Below, in pieces: positions 33,146 to 60,494 of a stretch of DNA of 64,000 nucleotides. The position numbers were made by a program, and so were the translations under genes. The number at the start of each line of letters is the position of its first letter. The first letter of the stretch is position 1. This DNA is from Bauldia sp. (GTDB lineage: Bacteria; Pseudomonadota; Alphaproteobacteria; Rhizobiales; Kaistiaceae): NCBI RefSeq assembly GCF_965232525.1, contig NZ_OZ246980.1:3872543-3936542 (forward strand). Direction: 5' to 3'. The notes below the pieces were generated by a model. That model had not been told where the DNA came from and did not search any database. It was given only the letters and a program-made list of their open reading frames with translations.

Positions 33146-34216
33146 TCAGCGGCCCCGGCGTGCCGCCACCGCGTCGGCGAGCGTATCGAGCACCGCGACC
33201 GAGGCGTCCCAATCGATGCAGCCGTCGGTGATGCTTTGGCCGTAGGTGAGCGGCTCCCCTGCCTTCAGGTCCTGCTTGCCGCCGACCAGATGGCTTTCGA
33301 TCATCGCCCCGACGATCCGCTGGTCGCCGGCCGCGACCTGTTCGGCGATCGCGTCGATGACCTTAGGCTGGTTCTCCGGCTTTTTCGCGCTGTTGGCGTG
33401 ACTCGCGTCGATCATCACCATCGGCCGCTGGCCGGAGCCTTCGAGCACCGCGCAGGCGGCCTCGACGCTGGCAGCGTCATAGTTCGGCGTCTTGCCGCCG
33501 CGCAAGATGATATGACAATCCGGATTACCGGCGGTCGCTGCGATCGCCGACTGGCCGCTCTTGGTGACGGCGAGGAAATGGTGGGGCATCGACGCCGATT
33601 TCACCGCGTCGGCGGCGATCTTGACGTTGCCGTCGGTGCCGTTCTTGAAGCCAACCGGACAGGAGGTTCCCGACGCCAGTTCCCGGTGGACCTGGCTCTC
33701 GGTGGTGCGCGCCCCGATCGCCGCCCAGGAGACCAGATCGGCAATGTATTGCGGCGTCGTCATGTCGAGGAACTCGCAGCCGGCCGGGAGCCCCATGTCG
33801 TTGACGTCGGCCAGCAACGCCCGGGCGAGCCGCAGTCCCTTGTCGATCGCGAAGCTGCCGTCGAGGTCGGGATCGTTGATCAGCCCCTTCCAGCCGACCG
33901 TGGTTCGCGGTTTCTCGAAATAGACCCGCATGACGATTTCCAGCCGGTCGGAGAGCCGCGCCCGAACCTCGGCGAGGCGGCGCGCGTAGTCGCGCGCGGC
34001 GTCCGGATCGTGAATCGAACACGGTCCGATCACGACGATCAGCCGATCGTCGGCGCCGGCCAGGATGCGGTGGATCGCAGCACGGCAACCCACGACCGTG
34101 GCGGTCGCCTTGGCATCGCGCGGGTACTCGGCGATCACCGCGTCGGGCGGACTGAGCTCCTTGATCGCGGTGATCCTGAGATCGTCGGTGGTATCGGTTT
34201 CGAGGGTCGTCAGCAT
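33146..34216 (-). CDS. aroG: Class I DAHP synthase (AroF/G/H family)
   Basis: GPCSIHD, MRVYFEKPRTTVGWKGLINDP, IGARTTESQ.HRELASG, GFKNGTDG, HIILRGG, DASHANS.K, YGQSITDGC; isoenzyme type cannot be fixed from sequence. Confidence 0.96.
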   Translation of the reverse strand: MLTTLETDTTDDLRITAIKELSPPDAVIAEYPRDAKATATVVGCRAAIHRILAGADDRLIVVIGPCSIHDPDAARDYARRLAEVRARLSDRLEIVMRVYFEKPRTTVGWKGLINDPDLDGSFAIDKGLRLARALLADVNDMGLPAGCEFLDMTTPQYIADLVSWAAIGARTTESQVHRELASGTSCPVGFKNGTDGNVKIAADAVKSASMPHHFLAVTKSGQSAIAATAGNPDCHIILRGGKTPNYDAASVEAACAVLEGSGQRPMVMIDASHANSAKKPENQPKVIDAIAEQVAAGDQRIVGAMIESHLVGGKQDLKAGEPLTYGQSITDGCIDWDASVAVLDTLADAVAARRGR

Positions 34217-34394: not shown

Positions 34395-34829
34395 GGCGCG
34401 CGTCATAGCCGAAGCCCGCACCGTTGTCACCCCGTCAATGTTGGCCCGCTGTGGCGGTCACCGCAGATCGGGGTCGATGGAACACAAGCGTCAACGCCGT
34501 GAATCCCGCCCGTTGTCGAATCCTCTGCGGAGTGTAGTTGGTATTTCGGGAGAACGCGTGCGGCGGTGCGTGCTTCGAGGCTCGGGCTGAAGCCCTCGCA
34601 CCTCAGCATGAGGGGGGTGGGCGAAGATCAAGTCGGGACAGCCCGCTTGGGCTGATACAACAGACCTCATCTTGAGGTGCGAGGCCGCCCTGAGCGGCCG
34701 AGCCTCGAAAGACGCAGCATCGGTGCAGCTTGCACCGACCCGCGTGCTTCGGGACCGTCTTCGGGTACCTCTGCATCAGGAGAGCGGACCACTGATACAT
34801 CGCAATTCAACAACGACAACACCGCGGAT

Positions 34830-34982
34830 CCCTCCCCGGCACCGGGGAGGGGGGGACCACCCGAAGGGTGGTGGGCGGGGTGAACCCTAACCCACCCCCC
34901 AACACACCGACCTCCAGACGCCGATGGTCAACCCCACCCGACCGCCGCTTCGCGCCGGCCACCCTCCCCAGATTGGGGAGGG
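34830..34982 (+). mobile_element. Gene-less copy of the DUF559 element (left end, ~50-bp spacer, right end)
   Basis: Left end 34830-34880 and right end 34932-34982 match the ends flanking the DUF559 gene. Confidence 0.65.
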
Positions 34983-35280
34983 ATGGCGGTTGGAGCGCCA
35001 TTTCCGAGCAGCCCTCCGATCGCTACGACAGGCGAGGCCGCCCAGACACCAACGATCGCGACGACGAGACACGACGCCGACACCGCGGTCCCTCCCCGGC
35101 ACGGGGAGGGGGGACCACCCGAAGGGGTGGTGGGTGGGGTCCTTGCGAGATTTCGACCCTACCCGGCCAACCTTCGCGGGAATGAGCGGAGGTGGTGACG
35201 ACTGTACAGCAACAACGCCGATCCACCCGTCCCAGCGGAGCGGACTCCCGGTCCGCGCCGCCCGTCTCCACCCGCTCCGC

Positions 35281-35412
35281 GTCGTCCTCTGGCTTGACCA
35301 GAGGACCCATCGAAACCGTTGCTCCGATGACGACCGCGATACCGGCTTTCGCGCTTCAGTGCCCAGCCGCGCACCACTGATACCGGGTCCTCTGGTCAAG
35401 CCAGAGGACGAC
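35281..35412. repeat. 132-bp REP doublet (family R3) with 28-bp perfect inverted ends
   Basis: GTCGTCCTCTGGCTTGACCAGAGGACCC ... GGGTCCTCTGGTCAAGCCAGAGGACGAC; second copy at 51322-51453. Confidence 0.9.
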
Positions 35413-35652
35413 GGGGTGGAGGCTCAACGGTCATCGCCCTCATGCCGAGAGCCCGCCCCTCGACCTCGTCCAGGACCCGCCCCCCGACCTCATCTTGAGG
35501 TGCGAGGCCGCCCTGAGCGGCCGAGCCTCGAAAGACGCAGCATCGGTGCAGCTTGCACCGACCCGCGTGCTTCGGGACCGTCTTCGGGTACCTCCGCATC
35601 AGGAGAGCGGACCACTGATGCATCGCAATTCAACAACGACAACACCGCGAAT

Positions 35653-36137
35653 CCCTCCCCGGCACCGGGGAGGGGGGACCACCCGAAGGGTGGTGGGTGG
35701 GGCTCGCGAGTCGCACGATCAAAAATGCCGTGTACAGTGACTATCATGGCAAGCAACCGCGCCCGCCAACTCCGAAAGACTATGACCCCGCAAGAGGTTA
35801 AGCTGTGGGTTCATCTGAGAACGTGGCGCGCGGGTGGCGTCCACTTCCGGCGACAGGCGCCGGTCAACGGTTATGTGGTTGACTTTCTGTGTCGCAGAAA
35901 CCGCCTCGTTATCGAAATCGACGGGAGCGGCCACACGCGGTTCCGCCAGGCGACAAACGACCGCACTCGCGATCAAGCTCTCGCAGCAGCCGGCTATCGT
36001 GTCGTTCGCTTCTGGAATAGAGAAATCGACACCAATCTGCCGGGCGTGCTTCACGCCATACGGTTCGCAGTTAACGAAACCAGAAACCCCACCCGACCGT
36101 CGCTTCGCGCCGGCCACCCTCCCCAGATTGGGGAGGG
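35653..36137 (+). mobile_element. Candidate autonomous element: double-hairpin inverted ends enclosing a DUF559 nuclease gene
   Basis: Left end CCCTCCCC-n6-GGGGAGGG-GG-ACCACCC-GAA-GGGTGGT-GGGTGGGG (35653-35702); right end CCCCACCC-GACCG..CCGGCC-A-CCCTCCCC-AGATT-GGGGAGGG (36087-36137). Mobility is inferred, not shown. Confidence 0.6.
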
Positions 36138-36141
36138 ATAA
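35746..36141 (+). CDS. DUF559 (Vsr-like / very-short-patch-repair-like) endonuclease domain protein
   Basis: ARQLRKTMTPQEVKLW..LR, HFRRQAP..GYVVDF.C....LVIEIDGSGH, D..RD..L...GYRVVRFWN; start at ATG 35746 or 35725. Confidence 0.92.
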   Translation: MASNRARQLRKTMTPQEVKLWVHLRTWRAGGVHFRRQAPVNGYVVDFLCRRNRLVIEIDGSGHTRFRQATNDRTRDQALAAAGYRVVRFWNREIDTNLPGVLHAIRFAVNETRNPTRPSLRAGHPPQIGEG

Positions 36142-36207
36142 GACGCGCGTTACCCAATCGTCACCGCAGATCGGGGTCGATGGAGGCGTACGCAGCGCAA
36201 CCGCGAT

Positions 36208-36359
36208 CCCTCCCCGCTTGTCGGGGAGGGGGGACCACCCGAAGGGTGGTGGGTGGGGCGAACCCTAACCCACCTCCCAACACACCGACCTCCAGACACC
36301 GTTGATCAACCCCACCCGACCGCCCTTCGCGCCGGCCACCCTCCCCAGATTGGGGAGGG
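36208..36359 (+). mobile_element. Second gene-less copy of the DUF559 element
   Basis: Left end 36208-36258, spacer nearly identical to 34881-34931, right end 36310-36359; a further left end at 36467-36516. Confidence 0.65.
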
Positions 36360-36608
36360 ATGGCGGTTGGAGCGCCATTTCCGAGCAGCCCTCCGATCGC
36401 TACGACAGGCGAGGCTGTCCAACCACCGACGATCGCGACGACACGTCACGACACCGACACCGCGGTCCCTCCCCGGCACCGGGGAGGGGGGACCACCCGA
36501 AGGGTGGTGGGTGGGGTGAGCCCCCCAACTCAACCGCCGACACGCGAACCCAAGTGAGCCGACATAGCCAGAAGGCCGGCCGCCATGAGCGCGGCCGGCC
36601 TCGCCGGT

Positions 36609-36998
36609 TCAGCTCGCGTAGCTAATGAACGCGAGGTTGGCGCCGAACGGGTCCTTGATCGTCGCCATGCGGCCGACGCCGGGGAAGTCCGCCGGCTCCG
36701 CCACCGAGTTCGCGCCGGCTTTCAGCGCGTCTTTGTAGCGGGCGTCGACATCGTCGACAGTGACATAGACCAGCCAGTGGCCATTGGTGTTGGGCTGCGG
36801 GTTGAAGCCGCCGACTCCCTTCTCGCCGACCATGATACCGGGATAGGCCGAACCGTCCTTCATCGGCATGTCGACTACGTTCCAGCCGAGAACGCTCTCA
36901 TAGAACTTGCGGGCGGCCGCAGGGTCGGCTCCATTGTGGCCGATCCAGCTCGGGGCGCCATGGGTTGCCATCGGGTCGTTGCTCATCATCACCTCCAT
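36609..36998 (-). CDS. VOC/glyoxalase family protein
   Basis: D..AARKFY..VLGW, W.VYV.VDDVDA, PGVGR.A...DPFGA. Confidence 0.88.
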   Translation of the reverse strand: MEVMMSNDPMATHGAPSWIGHNGADPAAARKFYESVLGWNVVDMPMKDGSAYPGIMVGEKGVGGFNPQPNTNGHWLVYVTVDDVDARYKDALKAGANSVAEPADFPGVGRMATIKDPFGANLAFISYAS

Positions 36999-51121: not shown

Positions 51122-51321
51122 GGTCACCGGTTGTCTCCTGTCAGGCGGCCGTTGTCGTCCTTCGATATCCGAAAACCGCTCCGAATGCGCGGACCGTGTG
51201 ACGCGGCTGTCTCCCCACCCTGCGGAACTCCTCTGCGTAGGTGCTGACCGCACGCACCACCCCTCTCCCCCTGCGGAAGTTTGGTTTGGTGTTCGCGCAC
51301 GACAGCGGGATCTCGTCACCG

Positions 51322-51925
51322 GTCGTCCTCTGGCTTGACCAGAGGACCCGGTATCACCGGCACACGGCCGGGCCATGAAGCGTCAAAGCCCGCATCGCGA
51401 TCATCACCGGAGCGGCGGTTTCGATGGGTCCTCTGGTCAAGCCAGAGGACGACGTGGAGCGAGTTTGCCCGCCGCTCGTCTGCCGTTAGCAGAATTCTCG
51501 TGACGCTTTCTCCCTGTCGGAGTCGATCGGACCCGCGTGCTTCGAGGCCGCCTTTCGGCGGCTCCTCAGCATGAGGAGGGTTAGTATCGTTCCGACGCAT
51601 CACAGGAGGCACCGCCCGCAGGGTGGTGGGTGGGGAATCCGCGAAAGACAAACAGCTTCTGTTGGTCTTCAACCCCACCAGTTTCTTCACCGAACCCCAC
51701 CCGTCCGGCGCTTCCGCGCCGGCCACCCTCCCCGCGCCGGGGAGGGACTCGCGGTTGCCACGCCGGCGACAAAATGAGCCGAGCCTCAAGAAGTCACAGC
51801 CAGATGCAACGAACGCACGACATCGCTGCGACGACACAATACCGGTATCGGCGAGACATGACGTCGATACCGCCATCCCTCCCCGCGCCGGGGAGGGGGG
51901 ACCGCCCGCAGGGTGGTGGGTGGGG
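51322..51925. repeat. Second mixed REP array (R3 doublet, R2 copy, DUF559-element ends)
   Basis: R3 at 51322-51453, R2 at 51534-51576, partial left end 51611-51635, right end about 51695-51746, left end about 51877-51925. Confidence 0.85.
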
Positions 51926-51992
51926 TCAACACCGCTGGTCCGAGCGCGGCACCTCCGGTACGCTCGTGTTCACGGGATCAGGAGCACCGCCC

Positions 51993-52340
51993 ATGGATGA
52001 CCTCGTTGCCGCCATCGCGACCGATTGCGGGCTCGACACCGACACCGCTCGCACCGTGGCGGTCGTGATCCTCAAATTCCTGGAAAGCGCCGGCCCGGCC
52101 GACCAGACGCGGGCGCTGATCGACGCACTGCCCGGCGCGCGGGAAGCGATGGCGGCGAACGCGGCGGGCAGCAGCCCGGGCCTCCTCGGCGCGTTCAGCG
52201 ACCTGAGCGCCGCCGGCCTCGGCACCGAGCAGATCCAGACCGCGGCCCGAAGTTTTGGCACATTCGCCCGCGGCCAGGCCGGCGACGAAGCCGTCGATGC
52301 CGTCGTGTCGTCGATCCCCGGCCTCGGACCGTTCGTCTGA
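51993..52340 (+). CDS. Conserved Rhizobiales small protein (DUF2267-like)
   Basis: MDDLVA.I....G.D...A...V..IL.FL...GP......L...LPGA...L...GL...QI......AG..AV......IPGL..FV; ATG after GGAG. Confidence 0.7.
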   Translation: MDDLVAAIATDCGLDTDTARTVAVVILKFLESAGPADQTRALIDALPGAREAMAANAAGSSPGLLGAFSDLSAAGLGTEQIQTAARSFGTFARGQAGDEAVDAVVSSIPGLGPFV

Positions 52341-60231: not shown

Positions 60232-60494
60232 TGCGTCTTCGAGGCTCGGGCTCATAGCCCTCGCATCCCCGATCGGGTCGGGGACAGGCTCTCAAGATGA
60301 GGTCTGTAGTTTCCGGCCAGACACACGCACTAAGCTCCTCATGCTGAGAGCCTGCCCCCGACCCGATCGGGGGAGTCCCGGCGGAGCCGGGCCTCGAAGC
60401 ACGCAGAGCGACCGACGCAGCATTCCCTCTCCCCTTGTGGGAGAGGATAGCGAGGCTTGGCGGTGAAGCCGGTTTAGCCGAGCTTGGTGAGGGG
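60232..60494. repeat. Third REP array (R2 doublet plus CCCTCTCCCC..GGGAGAGG-type end)
   Basis: R2 pair 60232-60302 and 60337-60405; CCCTCTCCCCTTGTGGGAGAGG...GGTGAGGGG at about 60425-60494. Confidence 0.75.

What the first reader, a model, noticed from the sequence alone, without database searches (positions are those of the whole stretch)
34830..36516. DUF559 endonuclease gene enclosed by double-hairpin inverted ends, with gene-less derivatives: candidate nuclease-driven repeat element
Seen in sequence: the DUF559 gene (35746-36141) sits between a left end (hairpin CCCTCCCC/GGGGAGGG, hairpin ACCACCC/GGGTGGT, then GGGTGGGG) and a right end with the mirror-image architecture (CCCCACCC, a hairpin, then CCCTCCCC/GGGGAGGG). 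The gene reads into the right end and stops 2 nt after it. The same end pair occurs twice around a shared ~50-bp non-coding spacer (34830-34982, 36208-36359) and again, more degenerately, at 51611-51746. Lone left ends occur at 35090, 36467 and about 51877, with a variant at 60425. Established: DUF559 is a Vsr-like PD-(D/E)xK-type nuclease fold with no well-defined cellular role, and REP/REPIN repeats in other bacteria are spread by RAYT HUH enzymes. Inference: this looks like an autonomous/non-autonomous pair in which a non-transposase nuclease is the cognate enzyme of a hairpin repeat family. No transposase is present in the window.
Basis: partly seen in the sequence, partly recalled or inferred. 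Interest (0 to 1): 0.85.

Follow-up and report, generated by a model that had tools for sequence, protein, structure and literature searches.

The report
DUF559 nuclease framed by BoxC triplex repeats
A small DNA-cutting-enzyme gene sits between two inverted copies of a foldable repeat that is the long-known but unexplained BoxC/"triplex motif" repeat of bacteria, and because this pairing recurs from Rhizobiales to E. coli and gut Firmicutes, the enzyme is a testable candidate for what handles or spreads these repeats.

Summary
The ORF at 35746-36141 is a DUF559 (YcjD-type, Vsr-like) nuclease. It lies between a left end (35653-35702) and a right end (36088-36138) that are imperfect inverted repeats.

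Each is a pyrimidine/purine hairpin followed by a G-rich block that mirrors the purine arm (GGGGAGGG then GGGTGGGG). That is the BoxC/PIT/TM intrastrand-triplex repeat known from E. coli, here with a second hairpin in the linker.

- **Across loci:** such a motif stands beside the gene at 55 of 62 DUF559 loci from many phyla, against 3 of 334 control positions.
- **Across genomes:** in 301 genomes of the order, all 29 with 10 or more copies carry DUF559.
- **In this genome:** there is no RAYT, and three repeat subfamilies each go with their own DUF559 paralogue.
- **In E. coli K-12:** there are 23 copies and one DUF559 gene (ycjD), with a copy about 170 bp away.

The gene-repeat partnership is well supported. 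That the nuclease binds, cuts or spreads the repeats is inferred, not shown. I found no published description of the link.

The parts
34457..34481 (+). Left copy of a perfect 25-bp direct repeat (GTCACCGCAGATCGGGGTCGATGGA) that brackets the 1.7-kb block holding the nuclease cassette
   Evidence: D7; only two copies in the genome
34830..34882 (+). Left-type triplex-motif end, subfamily A: hairpin CCCTCCCC/GGGGAGGG, second hairpin ACCACCC/GGGTGGT, third strand GGGCGGGG. It is the first half of a gene-less unit.
34883..34929 (.). 47-nt non-coding spacer of the gene-less unit. Two copies exist in the genome, both in this island.
   Evidence: query 'spacer'
34930..34984 (-). Right-type end, the same motif on the minus strand: CCCCACCC, a weak hairpin, then CCCTCCCC/GGGGAGGG
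   Evidence: (D5)
35090..35140 (+). Lone left-type end
35653..35702 (+). Left-type end of the nuclease cassette. It ends 43 nt before the ATG; in most relatives the gap is 4-13 nt.
35746..36141 (+). DUF559 (YcjD-type, Vsr-like PD-(D/E)xK) nuclease gene, 131 aa. The domain is residues 3-107. Residues D46, E57, D59 and H63 are invariant among homologues. Residues 117-131, encoded by the right end, are modelled as disordered.
36085..36141 (-). Right-type end of the cassette, lying inside the 3' end of the ORF. The stop codon TAA immediately follows the hairpin.
   Evidence: (D5)
36160..36184 (+). Right copy of the 25-bp direct repeat
   Evidence: (D7)
36208..36361 (.). Second gene-less unit: left end 36208-36259, spacer, right end 36308-36361
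   Evidence: (D4, D5)
36467..36517 (+). Lone left-type end
51611..51746 (.). Degenerate unit: truncated left end (51611-51636, without its first hairpin), spacer, right end (51693-51746)
51877..51925 (+). Lone left-type end
60426..60493 (+). Triplex motif of subfamily C (CCTCTCCC/GGGAGAGG with third strand GGTGAGGG and a 39-nt linker). This is the subfamily that flanks the DUF559 paralogue at genome position 462594.

Best explanation
**What it is.** The stretch is a mosaic island of BoxC/PIT/TM-type repeats in alternating orientation. A YcjD-type DUF559 nuclease gene occupies the interior of one inverted pair.

**The repeat.** Each repeat is a pyrimidine arm, a loop and a purine arm, followed by a G/T-rich third block. 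That block mirrors the purine arm (G opposite G, A or T opposite A), which is the rule for a purine-motif DNA triple helix within one strand. In this lineage a second, freely co-varying hairpin forms the linker.

**Shown.**
- The gene with its two ends is one conserved package found across phyla.
- End sequence co-varies with nuclease lineage.
- Repeat-rich genomes always carry the gene.
- Gene-less pairs are dispersed, sometimes as near-identical copies.

**Inferred.**
- Each DUF559 nuclease recognises the folded or duplex ends of its own repeat subfamily and nicks or cuts there.
- A PD-(D/E)xK nuclease cannot religate DNA. Host recombination and repair would therefore do the copying: gene conversion among units, occasional ectopic insertion, and homing of the gene into gene-less units.
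- In layout this resembles REPIN/RAYT. In chemistry it resembles a homing endonuclease.
- Where the cassette sits at the same site in several genera, it is inherited vertically under purifying selection, as RAYTs are.
For: **Identity of the gene.**
- Pfam DUF559 at E=7.6e-35; NCBIfam PRK09767/YcjD; PDB 3hrl at E=4e-31.
- The model's nearest folds are 3hrl, the homing endonuclease I-Bth0305I and Vsr.
- The catalytic residues are invariant among homologues.

**Identity of the ends.**
- The mirror rule holds with changes in all three blocks together across lineages: GGGGAGGG/GGGTGGGG, GGGGAAGG/GGATGGGG, GGGCGAGG/GGAGTGGG, AAAGGGAG/GAGGGTAT, GAGGGAGC/TGAGGGAG.
- The same pattern finds 23 copies in E. 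coli K-12. That is the number published for TMECO/BoxC (PMC4666352).

**Association.**
- Inverted-repeat score around 62 DUF559 loci: median 26.5 against 8.5 at control offsets; 53 of 62 exceed the control 95th percentile.
- Triplex motif beside the gene at 55 of 62 loci, against 3 of 334 controls. All 20 further loci from an order-wide sample also have one.
- The peptides used to fetch the loci did not include the repeat-encoded tail.
- Of 120 homologues, 78 end in ..PPxGEG* and 18 read the same DNA in another frame as ..TLPxxGRD. The constraint is therefore on the DNA, not the peptide.
- 301 genomes of the order: 60 of 71 with the pattern have DUF559, against 62 of 230 without it. All 29 with 10 or more copies have it (Fisher p=4.6e-13).
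- Within this genome, subfamily A goes with the paralogues at 3908294 and 761582, B with 2565009 and C with 462594. Genome G018 shows the same with 8 paralogues.
- On the nuclease tree the end type needs 48 changes, against 69.6 when labels are shuffled; 0 of 200 shuffles are as low.
- No RAYT in the genome. No other protein family recurs beside the repeats.

**Mobility of the units.**
- G127 has 10 or more dispersed copies of a sharply bounded unit of about 165 bp, several with identical left ends.
- The hemE|hemJ site is filled in four genera and empty here.
- The gap at 51122-51993 is about 870 bp here and roughly 125-150 bp between the two start codons in same-genus species.
- E. coli has one DUF559 gene (ycjD), with a BoxC copy about 170 bp downstream.
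Against: - No binding or cleavage data exist for any member of this family.
- 11 of 71 genomes with the pattern lack DUF559 at E<=1e-8. Most have 1-2 copies, but G095 has 6 and G176 has 5.
- The co-occurrence test is not corrected for phylogeny.
- The gene copies in this genome are old (79% identical). At shared sites DUF559 diverges like its housekeeping neighbours (70-83% against 62-88%). There is thus no sign of recent gene movement.
- Geometry is not uniform. The order right end, gene, left end is found at 9 loci, plus 8 partial ones, of 94.
- No consistent short target duplication was found. Only occasional long flanking direct repeats of 18-26 bp appear.
- A PD-(D/E)xK nuclease cannot religate DNA, so any transposition must depend on the host.
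- The one DUF559 protein with genetics, Caulobacter VsrA, is linked to cytosine methylation (PMC12907096).
- Sequencing runs gave no excision or insertion junctions that could be trusted.
Confidence: 0.5

Rival explanations
1. **Passenger or bystander.** The triplex repeats spread or persist by some other route, such as replication slippage, host recombination or an unknown enzyme acting in trans. DUF559 is an ordinary Vsr-like repair nuclease whose gene happens to be a favoured landing place or cargo.
For: - Solo and gene-less repeats far outnumber genes: up to 90 copies against 2 genes in G134.
- 11 of 71 repeat-bearing genomes lack DUF559.
- Caulobacter VsrA, a DUF559 protein, behaves as a nuclease linked to cytosine methylation (PMC12907096).
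- DUF559 at shared sites evolves like a housekeeping gene.
Against: - The fixed geometry is hard to get from random landings. The third strand lies a few nt before the ATG and the stop codon sits at the end of the right hairpin.
- It holds across phyla with unrelated end sequences.
- Different paralogues in one genome carry different end subfamilies.
- No other recurrent neighbour gene was found.
- All 29 repeat-rich genomes have the gene.
- No cytosine methyltransferase ORF lies next to the gene.
Confidence: 0.2
2. **Homing parasite of pre-existing units.** The repeat units spread by another mechanism. The DUF559 gene is a free-standing homing endonuclease that cuts gene-less units and copies itself into their spacer, using the two ends as homology arms.
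For: - The gene replaces the spacer of a left-spacer-right unit.
- The fold is closest, after 3hrl, to the homing endonuclease I-Bth0305I (PMC3239194).
- Many copies in relatives carry in-frame stops, as expected for a homing-endonuclease life cycle.
- The distribution in the genus is patchy.
Against: - There are only two same-subfamily gene copies here, and they are 79% identical.
- Most units remain gene-less.
- Cassettes persist vertically at shared sites.
- This reading does not explain who spreads the units.
Confidence: 0.15
3. **Cis-regulatory structures of the gene's own expression.** The ends would act at the mRNA 5' and 3' ends, in translational control, or as terminators. The solo copies would be decayed cassettes.
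For: - The left end abuts the start codon, and its G-rich block resembles a ribosome-binding site.
- The right end holds the stop codon.
- No promoter consensus lies inside the cassette.
Against: - The conserved mirror (purine-motif triplex) rule points to DNA. According to the introduction of PMC4666352 this triplex type does not form in RNA.
- Gene-less units have short spacers of 5-50 nt and occur as near-identical dispersed copies. They are therefore not decayed genes.
- No Rfam family matches.
Confidence: 0.1
4. **Invertible switch.** The inverted repeats are substrates of a site-specific recombinase that flips the nuclease gene.
For: DUF559 is enriched 14-fold among predicted programmed-inversion targets in a published survey (PMC9881135).
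Against: - No recombinase gene lies nearby.
- No inverted form was seen in the available runs.
- The enrichment follows trivially from inverted repeats overlapping the coding sequence.
- The repeats are dispersed genome-wide.
Confidence: 0.03

Closest known systems
BoxC / PIT (potential intrastrand triplex) elements / TM(ECO) motifs of E. coli and more than 260 other genomes (Holder et al. 2015, PMC4666352, and earlier work cited there)
   Same: - Pyrimidine arm, loop and purine arm, followed by a G-rich third block that mirrors the purine arm.
- Intergenic and multi-copy, on both strands.
- My pattern recovers exactly the 23 published copies in K-12.
- The loci are unstable between strains in the paper. 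Here they sit at synteny breaks and in expanded intergenic gaps.
   Different: - The linker here is a second hairpin of about 20 nt that co-varies freely. In E. coli it is 3 nt.
- Units occur as inverted pairs of 110-165 bp and in BIME-like arrays.
- The paper reports finding no mobility genes near the motifs and never mentions an endonuclease. The link to DUF559/ycjD is therefore not in that paper.
REP/REPIN elements with their RAYT (TnpA-REP) enzymes
   Same: - Short structured repeats, often as inverted pairs.
- A low-copy gene flanked by its own repeats.
- Many more repeats than genes.
- Vertical persistence of the gene.
- Repeat type matched to enzyme lineage.
   Different: - The enzyme is a Vsr-like PD-(D/E)xK nuclease, not an HUH Y1 transposase.
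- There is no Y1_Tnp match in this genome.
- The repeat carries a mirror third strand, not only a palindrome.
- No strand-transfer chemistry is available to the enzyme.
Insertion sequences and their MITE derivatives
   Same: - An ORF bracketed by imperfect terminal inverted repeats of about 55 bp.
- The start lies just after the left repeat and the stop inside the right repeat.
- Gene-less derivatives have the same ends.
   Different: - The only protein is a nuclease domain of about 107 aa.
- No DDE, HUH, serine or tyrosine recombinase is present.
- No regular short target duplication was found.
- Some lineages have the reverse geometry.
Vsr-like homing endonucleases (I-Bth0305I, PDB 3r3p; PMC3239194)
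   Same: - Related catalytic fold (Foldseek probability 1.0).
- Small selfish-looking gene with a patchy distribution.
- Frequent in-frame stops among copies in relatives.
   Different: - Not inside an intron or intein.
- Flanked by dispersed repeats.
- No known target site.
Vsr and Caulobacter VsrA (DUF559) mismatch nucleases (PMC12907096)
   Same: - Same fold.
- VsrA carries the same Pfam domain.
   Different: - The TIGR00632 Vsr model scores far below its cut-off (18 against 98 bits).
- No cytosine methyltransferase gene is adjacent.
- The defining repeat context has not been reported for Vsr.

Membership tests
DUF559 / YcjD-like PD-(D/E)xK nucleases (PF04480) | Match to the family profile above its curated cut-off | tested here: met
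   119.5 bits against a cut-off of 20.6, E=7.6e-35. PDB 3hrl at E=4e-31.
DUF559 / YcjD-like PD-(D/E)xK nucleases (PF04480) | Conserved acidic and histidine active-site residues on the core fold | tested here: met
   D46, E57, D59, H63 and D72 are invariant in 17 homologues. The model superposes on 3hrl, 3r3p and 1vsr.
BoxC / PIT / TM intrastrand-triplex repeats | Hairpin of a pyrimidine arm and a complementary purine arm | tested here: met
   CCCTCCCC/GGGGAGGG at every end. It folds as single-stranded DNA.
BoxC / PIT / TM intrastrand-triplex repeats | Third G/T-rich block that mirrors the purine arm (G.G, A.A and T.A triads) | tested here: met
   GGGTGGGG against GGGGAGGG. The rule is kept with changes in all three blocks together in other lineages. 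The same pattern recovers the 23 published E. coli copies.
BoxC / PIT / TM intrastrand-triplex repeats | Multi-copy and intergenic, well above chance | tested here: met
   77 motifs against 8 in the reversed genome. The order-wide pattern gives 0 hits in every reversed control.
BoxC / PIT / TM intrastrand-triplex repeats | Actual triplex formation (CD, NMR or footprinting) | not testable with these tools
   Shown in print only for the E. coli motif (PMC4666352). The long hairpin linker of this variant has not been tested.
REPIN/RAYT system | A Y1 HUH transposase (RAYT) flanked by the repeats | tested here: not met
   No PF01797 match in the whole genome at E<=0.01.
REPIN/RAYT system | Inverted pairs of a short structured repeat, dispersed, with a low-copy associated gene | tested here: met
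Insertion sequence / MITE | A transposase of a known class inside the inverted repeats | tested here: not met
   The only ORF with a family match between the ends is DUF559.
Insertion sequence / MITE | Regular short target-site duplication | tested here: inconclusive
   No common short duplication was found at unit borders. Occasional long direct repeats of 18-26 bp appear.
Vsr very-short-patch repair endonuclease | Match to the Vsr model and linkage to a cytosine methyltransferase | tested here: not met
   TIGR00632 scores 18.1 bits against a cut-off of 97.85. No methyltransferase-like ORF lies among the neighbours; these ORFs were not searched family by family.
Homing endonuclease gene | Lies in an intron, intein or defined target gene and cuts the empty allele | not testable with these tools
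   Only fold likeness to I-Bth0305I and filled versus empty sites are available.

The most novel reading that the evidence does not exclude
YcjD-type DUF559 nucleases are the missing partner enzymes of the BoxC/PIT/TM triplex repeats throughout Bacteria. Gene plus two triplex-forming ends would be a 450-600-bp autonomous cassette, and the dispersed gene-less pairs its non-autonomous form. Together they would make a class of mobile or self-homogenising element that uses a Vsr-like nuclease, a folded DNA triplex as recognition structure, and host repair in place of a transposase.
Probability: 0.3. Interest if true: 0.92.

Novelty: new variant of a known kind. Interest (0 to 1): 0.8.

Why it matters
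**An orphan repeat gets a candidate partner.** BoxC/PIT/TM repeats have been known in E. coli since the 1990s. They form triplex DNA in vitro and mark unstable loci, yet no protein partner or means of spread is known. The 2015 survey states that no mobility genes were found near them.

**An uncharacterised family gets a candidate substrate.** DUF559 is a very large nuclease family with almost no assigned function. A specific, phylum-spanning, co-varying pairing of the two gives each a candidate explanation.

**It is testable in the standard laboratory strain.** E. coli K-12 has one gene (ycjD) and 23 repeats.

**If the nuclease acts on the repeats.** This would be a second, independently evolved repeat-enzyme partnership beside REPIN/RAYT, and the first known use of a DNA triplex fold as an element end.

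**What this genome adds.** It offers a built-in specificity test: three repeat subfamilies, each with its own paralogue.

Tried and rejected
- **Fuzzy regex over the genome** timed out and was replaced by BLAST and exact patterns.
- **Rfam:** nothing near any gathering score.
- **Promoter scan:** no consensus promoter in or before the cassette.
- **Empty site at the aroG side of the island:** aroG orthologues in four same-genus species have other neighbours. The island sits at a synteny break, so no empty site could be read there.
- **Sequencing runs:** only assembler contigs of three metagenome-like runs hold the region. They break at every repeat, and the 'joints' are repeat artefacts. This gives no evidence for or against excision.
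- **Defence-system reading:** only weak PADLOC hits to nuclease domains of DpdF and PDC-S37, so rejected.
- **Simple cut-and-paste transposon with terminal inverted repeats:** rejected as stated. The geometry is reversed in Beijerinckiaceae and Eubacteriales, and no short target duplication is seen.
- **Tail peptide as a functional protein motif:** rejected. The same DNA is read in two frames or lies after the stop, and the tail is modelled as disordered.
- **Exact insertion borders at 51122-51993:** the intergenic DNA of relatives is too diverged to align.
Full report
**1. What is in the sequence**

Between the DAHP synthase gene (33146-34216, minus strand) and a glyoxalase-family gene (36609-36998, minus strand) lies a gap of about 2.4 kb, most of it made of repeats.

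- The only ORF there with a family match is 35746-36141(+). It hits Pfam DUF559 at E=7.6e-35 over residues 3-107 and NCBIfam PRK09767, the E. coli YcjD family.
- Five copies of a left end and three of a right end alternate across the island (D3, D5).
- Left and right ends are imperfect reverse complements of each other, 73% over 59 nt (I1).
- Two gene-less units, each a left end, a 47-nt spacer and a right end, flank the gene-bearing unit.
- Larger duplications overlie this pattern: 34663-34854 matches 35486-35677 at 98%, and 34948-35140 matches 36325-36517 at 90%.

**2. What the ends are**

Each end has four parts:
- a hairpin, CCCTCCCC, a loop, GGGGAGGG;
- a second hairpin;
- the block GGGTGGGG.

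That block is the mirror image of the purine arm, with T opposite the A. This is the rule for a purine-motif triple helix folded within one strand.

The rule survives complete changes of sequence in other lineages. Purine arm and third block change together:

| Purine arm | Third block | Lineage |
|---|---|---|
| GGGGAAGG | GGATGGGG | several Alphaproteobacteria (for example Parvibaculaceae) |
| GGGCGAGG | GGAGTGGG | Hyphomonadaceae |
| AAAGGGAG | GAGGGTAT | Elusimicrobium |
| GAGGGAGC | TGAGGGAG | Eubacteriales |
| GAGAAGGG | GGGATGAG | Paceibacterota |

- The same pattern finds 23 copies in E. coli K-12, with none in the reversed control.
- That is exactly the number published for the 'TMECO' motif, earlier called BoxC and PIT (PMC4666352).
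- The ends are therefore members of a known repeat family. The local variant has a hairpin linker of about 20 nt whose stem differs from genome to genome while staying paired.
- According to that paper's introduction, this triplex type does not form in RNA. This argues that the conserved feature acts at the DNA level.
- No Rfam family matches.

**3. The gene-repeat link is general**

I fetched 73 loci that encode relatives of the protein. The peptide patterns used lay inside the domain, not in the repeat-encoded tail.

- Upstream sequence aligned to the reverse complement of downstream sequence scores a median of 26.5, against 8.5 at control offsets in the same loci. In 53 of 62 loci the score exceeds the control 95th percentile.
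- These loci include Elusimicrobium, Eubacteriales, Ruminococcus, Bacteroidota, Paceibacterota and Sphingomonadales.
- A hairpin with a mirror third strand stands beside the gene at 55 of 62 loci, against 3 of 334 control positions.
- It also stands at all 20 further loci taken from an order-wide sample.
- In the commonest geometry the third strand ends a few to about 20 nt before the start codon (4-13 nt in the closest relatives, median 14), and the right end starts about 23 nt after the domain. This holds for 39 of 94 loci, plus 24 with one side detected.
- In that geometry the ORF runs through the right end to a stop placed directly after the hairpin.
- Of the 120 best database homologues, 78 end in ..PPxGEG followed by a stop. 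Another 18 read the same DNA in another frame as ..TLPxxGRD.
- The tail is modelled as disordered. What is conserved is therefore the DNA, not a peptide.
- A published survey lists DUF559 as 14-fold enriched among predicted inversion targets, without comment (PMC9881135). That fits inverted repeats overlapping these genes.

**4. Genome-level co-occurrence**

In 301 genomes of the order:
- The left-end pattern occurs in 71, with up to 90 copies. The reversed control gives zero everywhere.
- A DUF559 relative occurs in 122.
- 60 of the 71 pattern-bearing genomes have the gene, against 62 of the other 230.
- All 29 genomes with 10 or more copies have it (Fisher p=4.6e-13). This test is not corrected for phylogeny.

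In this genome:
- There is no RAYT.
- The only protein family that recurs beside the repeats is DUF559 itself.

In E. coli K-12:
- There is one DUF559 gene, ycjD.
- A BoxC copy lies about 170 bp downstream of it, with a remnant of a second DUF559 3' end in between.

**5. Specificity**

- This genome has four DUF559 genes, and all are flanked by triplex motifs.
- The two 79%-identical copies, the window's and the one at 761582, carry subfamily A.
- The copy at 2565009 carries CCCTCTCCC/GGGTGAGGGG ends with a short linker (subfamily B).
- The copy at 462594 carries the long-linker subfamily C, to which the window's 60426 copy belongs.
- Genome G018 has eight paralogues with at least four end types. 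The paralogue closest to the window's protein (58%) has subfamily A ends.
- On a tree of 94 nuclease domains, end type needs 48 changes against 69.6 when labels are shuffled. None of 200 shuffles is as low.
- Host phylogeny contributes to this signal. The within-genome cases do not depend on it.

**6. Signs of movement and of stability**

Signs of movement:
- In G127 a unit of about 165 bp, with sharp borders (ttttCCCTCCCC ... GGGGAGGGagaaga), occurs at 10 or more dispersed places. Several copies have identical left ends.
- The hemE|hemJ junction holds a cassette in four genera and is empty in this genome.
- The divergent-gene gap at 51122-51993 is about 870 bp here and full of repeats. In the same-genus species read it is roughly 125-150 bp between the two start codons.
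- No species of the same genus has a close orthologue of the window's nuclease; the best match is 42-50% identical.

Signs of stability:
- At shared sites DUF559 is as conserved as its neighbours, 70-83% against 62-88%.
- That points to long vertical persistence under purifying selection, as described for RAYTs.

Unresolved:
- I found no regular short target duplication.
- Long flanking direct repeats do occur. A perfect 25-mer, present only twice in the genome, brackets 34482-36159. An approximately 18-bp repeat rebuilds the nuoD end and nuoE start in G302. A 26-bp repeat occurs in Methylocystis. Their meaning is open.

**7. How it most likely works**

Shown:
- The package is conserved.
- End type co-varies with nuclease lineage.
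- Gene and repeats co-occur across genomes.

Inferred:
- The nuclease recognises its own ends, folded or duplex, and nicks or cuts there.
- Such a nuclease cannot religate DNA. Copying would therefore rely on host recombination: conversion among units, occasional ectopic insertion, and homing of the gene into gene-less units.
- The fold is closest to 3hrl, then to the homing endonuclease I-Bth0305I, then to Vsr.
- The published instability of BoxC loci (PMC4666352) would follow from such cuts.

Rivals are listed with their odds. The strongest is that DUF559 is a bystander repair nuclease. It is supported by the Caulobacter VsrA work (PMC12907096) and by the minority of repeat-bearing genomes without the gene.

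**8. Novelty**

- In the paper library I found nothing that links DUF559 or ycjD with BoxC/PIT/TM or with REP-like repeats.
- The 2015 paper says no mobility genes were found near the motifs.
- Earlier notes of this scan, read only after I had reached the BoxC link, describe the same pairing in other genomes and in E. coli. They agree, but they are not independent evidence.
- This window adds four things: the three-subfamily specificity case, the order-wide statistics, the evidence of vertical persistence, and the hairpin-linker variant.

Noticed in passing
window 35270-35420 and 51322-51460: An unrelated palindromic element of about 140 bp, with 32-nt arms (CCGCGTCGTCCTCTGGCTTGACCAGAGGACCC) that are 97% complementary. 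It has roughly 25-30 copies or part-copies across the genome and is interleaved with the triplex repeats.
   Followed up: partly
window 34567-34720, 35478-35540, 51540-51580: A third hairpin repeat family (CCTCATCTTGAGGTGCGAGGC...GCCTCGAAAG and its complement), with about 15 short matches elsewhere in the genome. It forms part of the 192-nt duplicated block in front of two left ends.
   Followed up: partly
window 34457-34481 and 36160-36184: A perfect 25-bp direct repeat, present only twice in the 4.36-Mb genome, brackets the 1.7-kb block that ends 18 nt after the DUF559 stop. Similar long flanking repeats occur at DUF559 cassettes in G302 (nuoD/nuoE junction) and Methylocystis sp. B8.
   Followed up: partly
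window 51122-51993: The gap between two divergently transcribed conserved genes is about 870 bp here and filled with three repeat families. In the same-genus species read it is only about 125-150 bp between the two start codons.
   Followed up: yes
genome G000 C1:462594-462908 (outside the window): This DUF559 paralogue has a TGA at about codon 7 of the usual N-terminus. It is either a pseudogene or starts at the internal Met (MTPAEQ..), as some database homologues do. Many DUF559 hits in related genomes also carry one or two in-frame stops.
   Followed up: no
L098 (E. coli K-12 NC_000913.3, 1351205-1351760): Downstream of ycjD lies a remnant of a second DUF559 3' end (..ETVLENIRQGLNR..) followed by a BoxC copy. 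A published pangenome study shows that ycjD occupies the fabI-sapF gap only in strains that lack the eefRABCD operon (PMC12817139).
   Followed up: partly
L021, L022, L024, L039, L067 (Beijerinckiaceae); L051, L052 (Eubacteriales): The reverse geometry: a complete left-right unit or a right end stands before the gene and a left end after it. The gene therefore lies between units rather than inside one.
   Followed up: partly
L003 (uncultured proteobacterium), upstream of the cassette: A decayed copy of the last ~50 nt of a DUF559 gene with its right end stands just upstream of an intact cassette. Cassettes can therefore lie in tandem and decay.
   Followed up: no
The repeat island begins directly upstream of it. 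I did not examine it.
   Followed up: no
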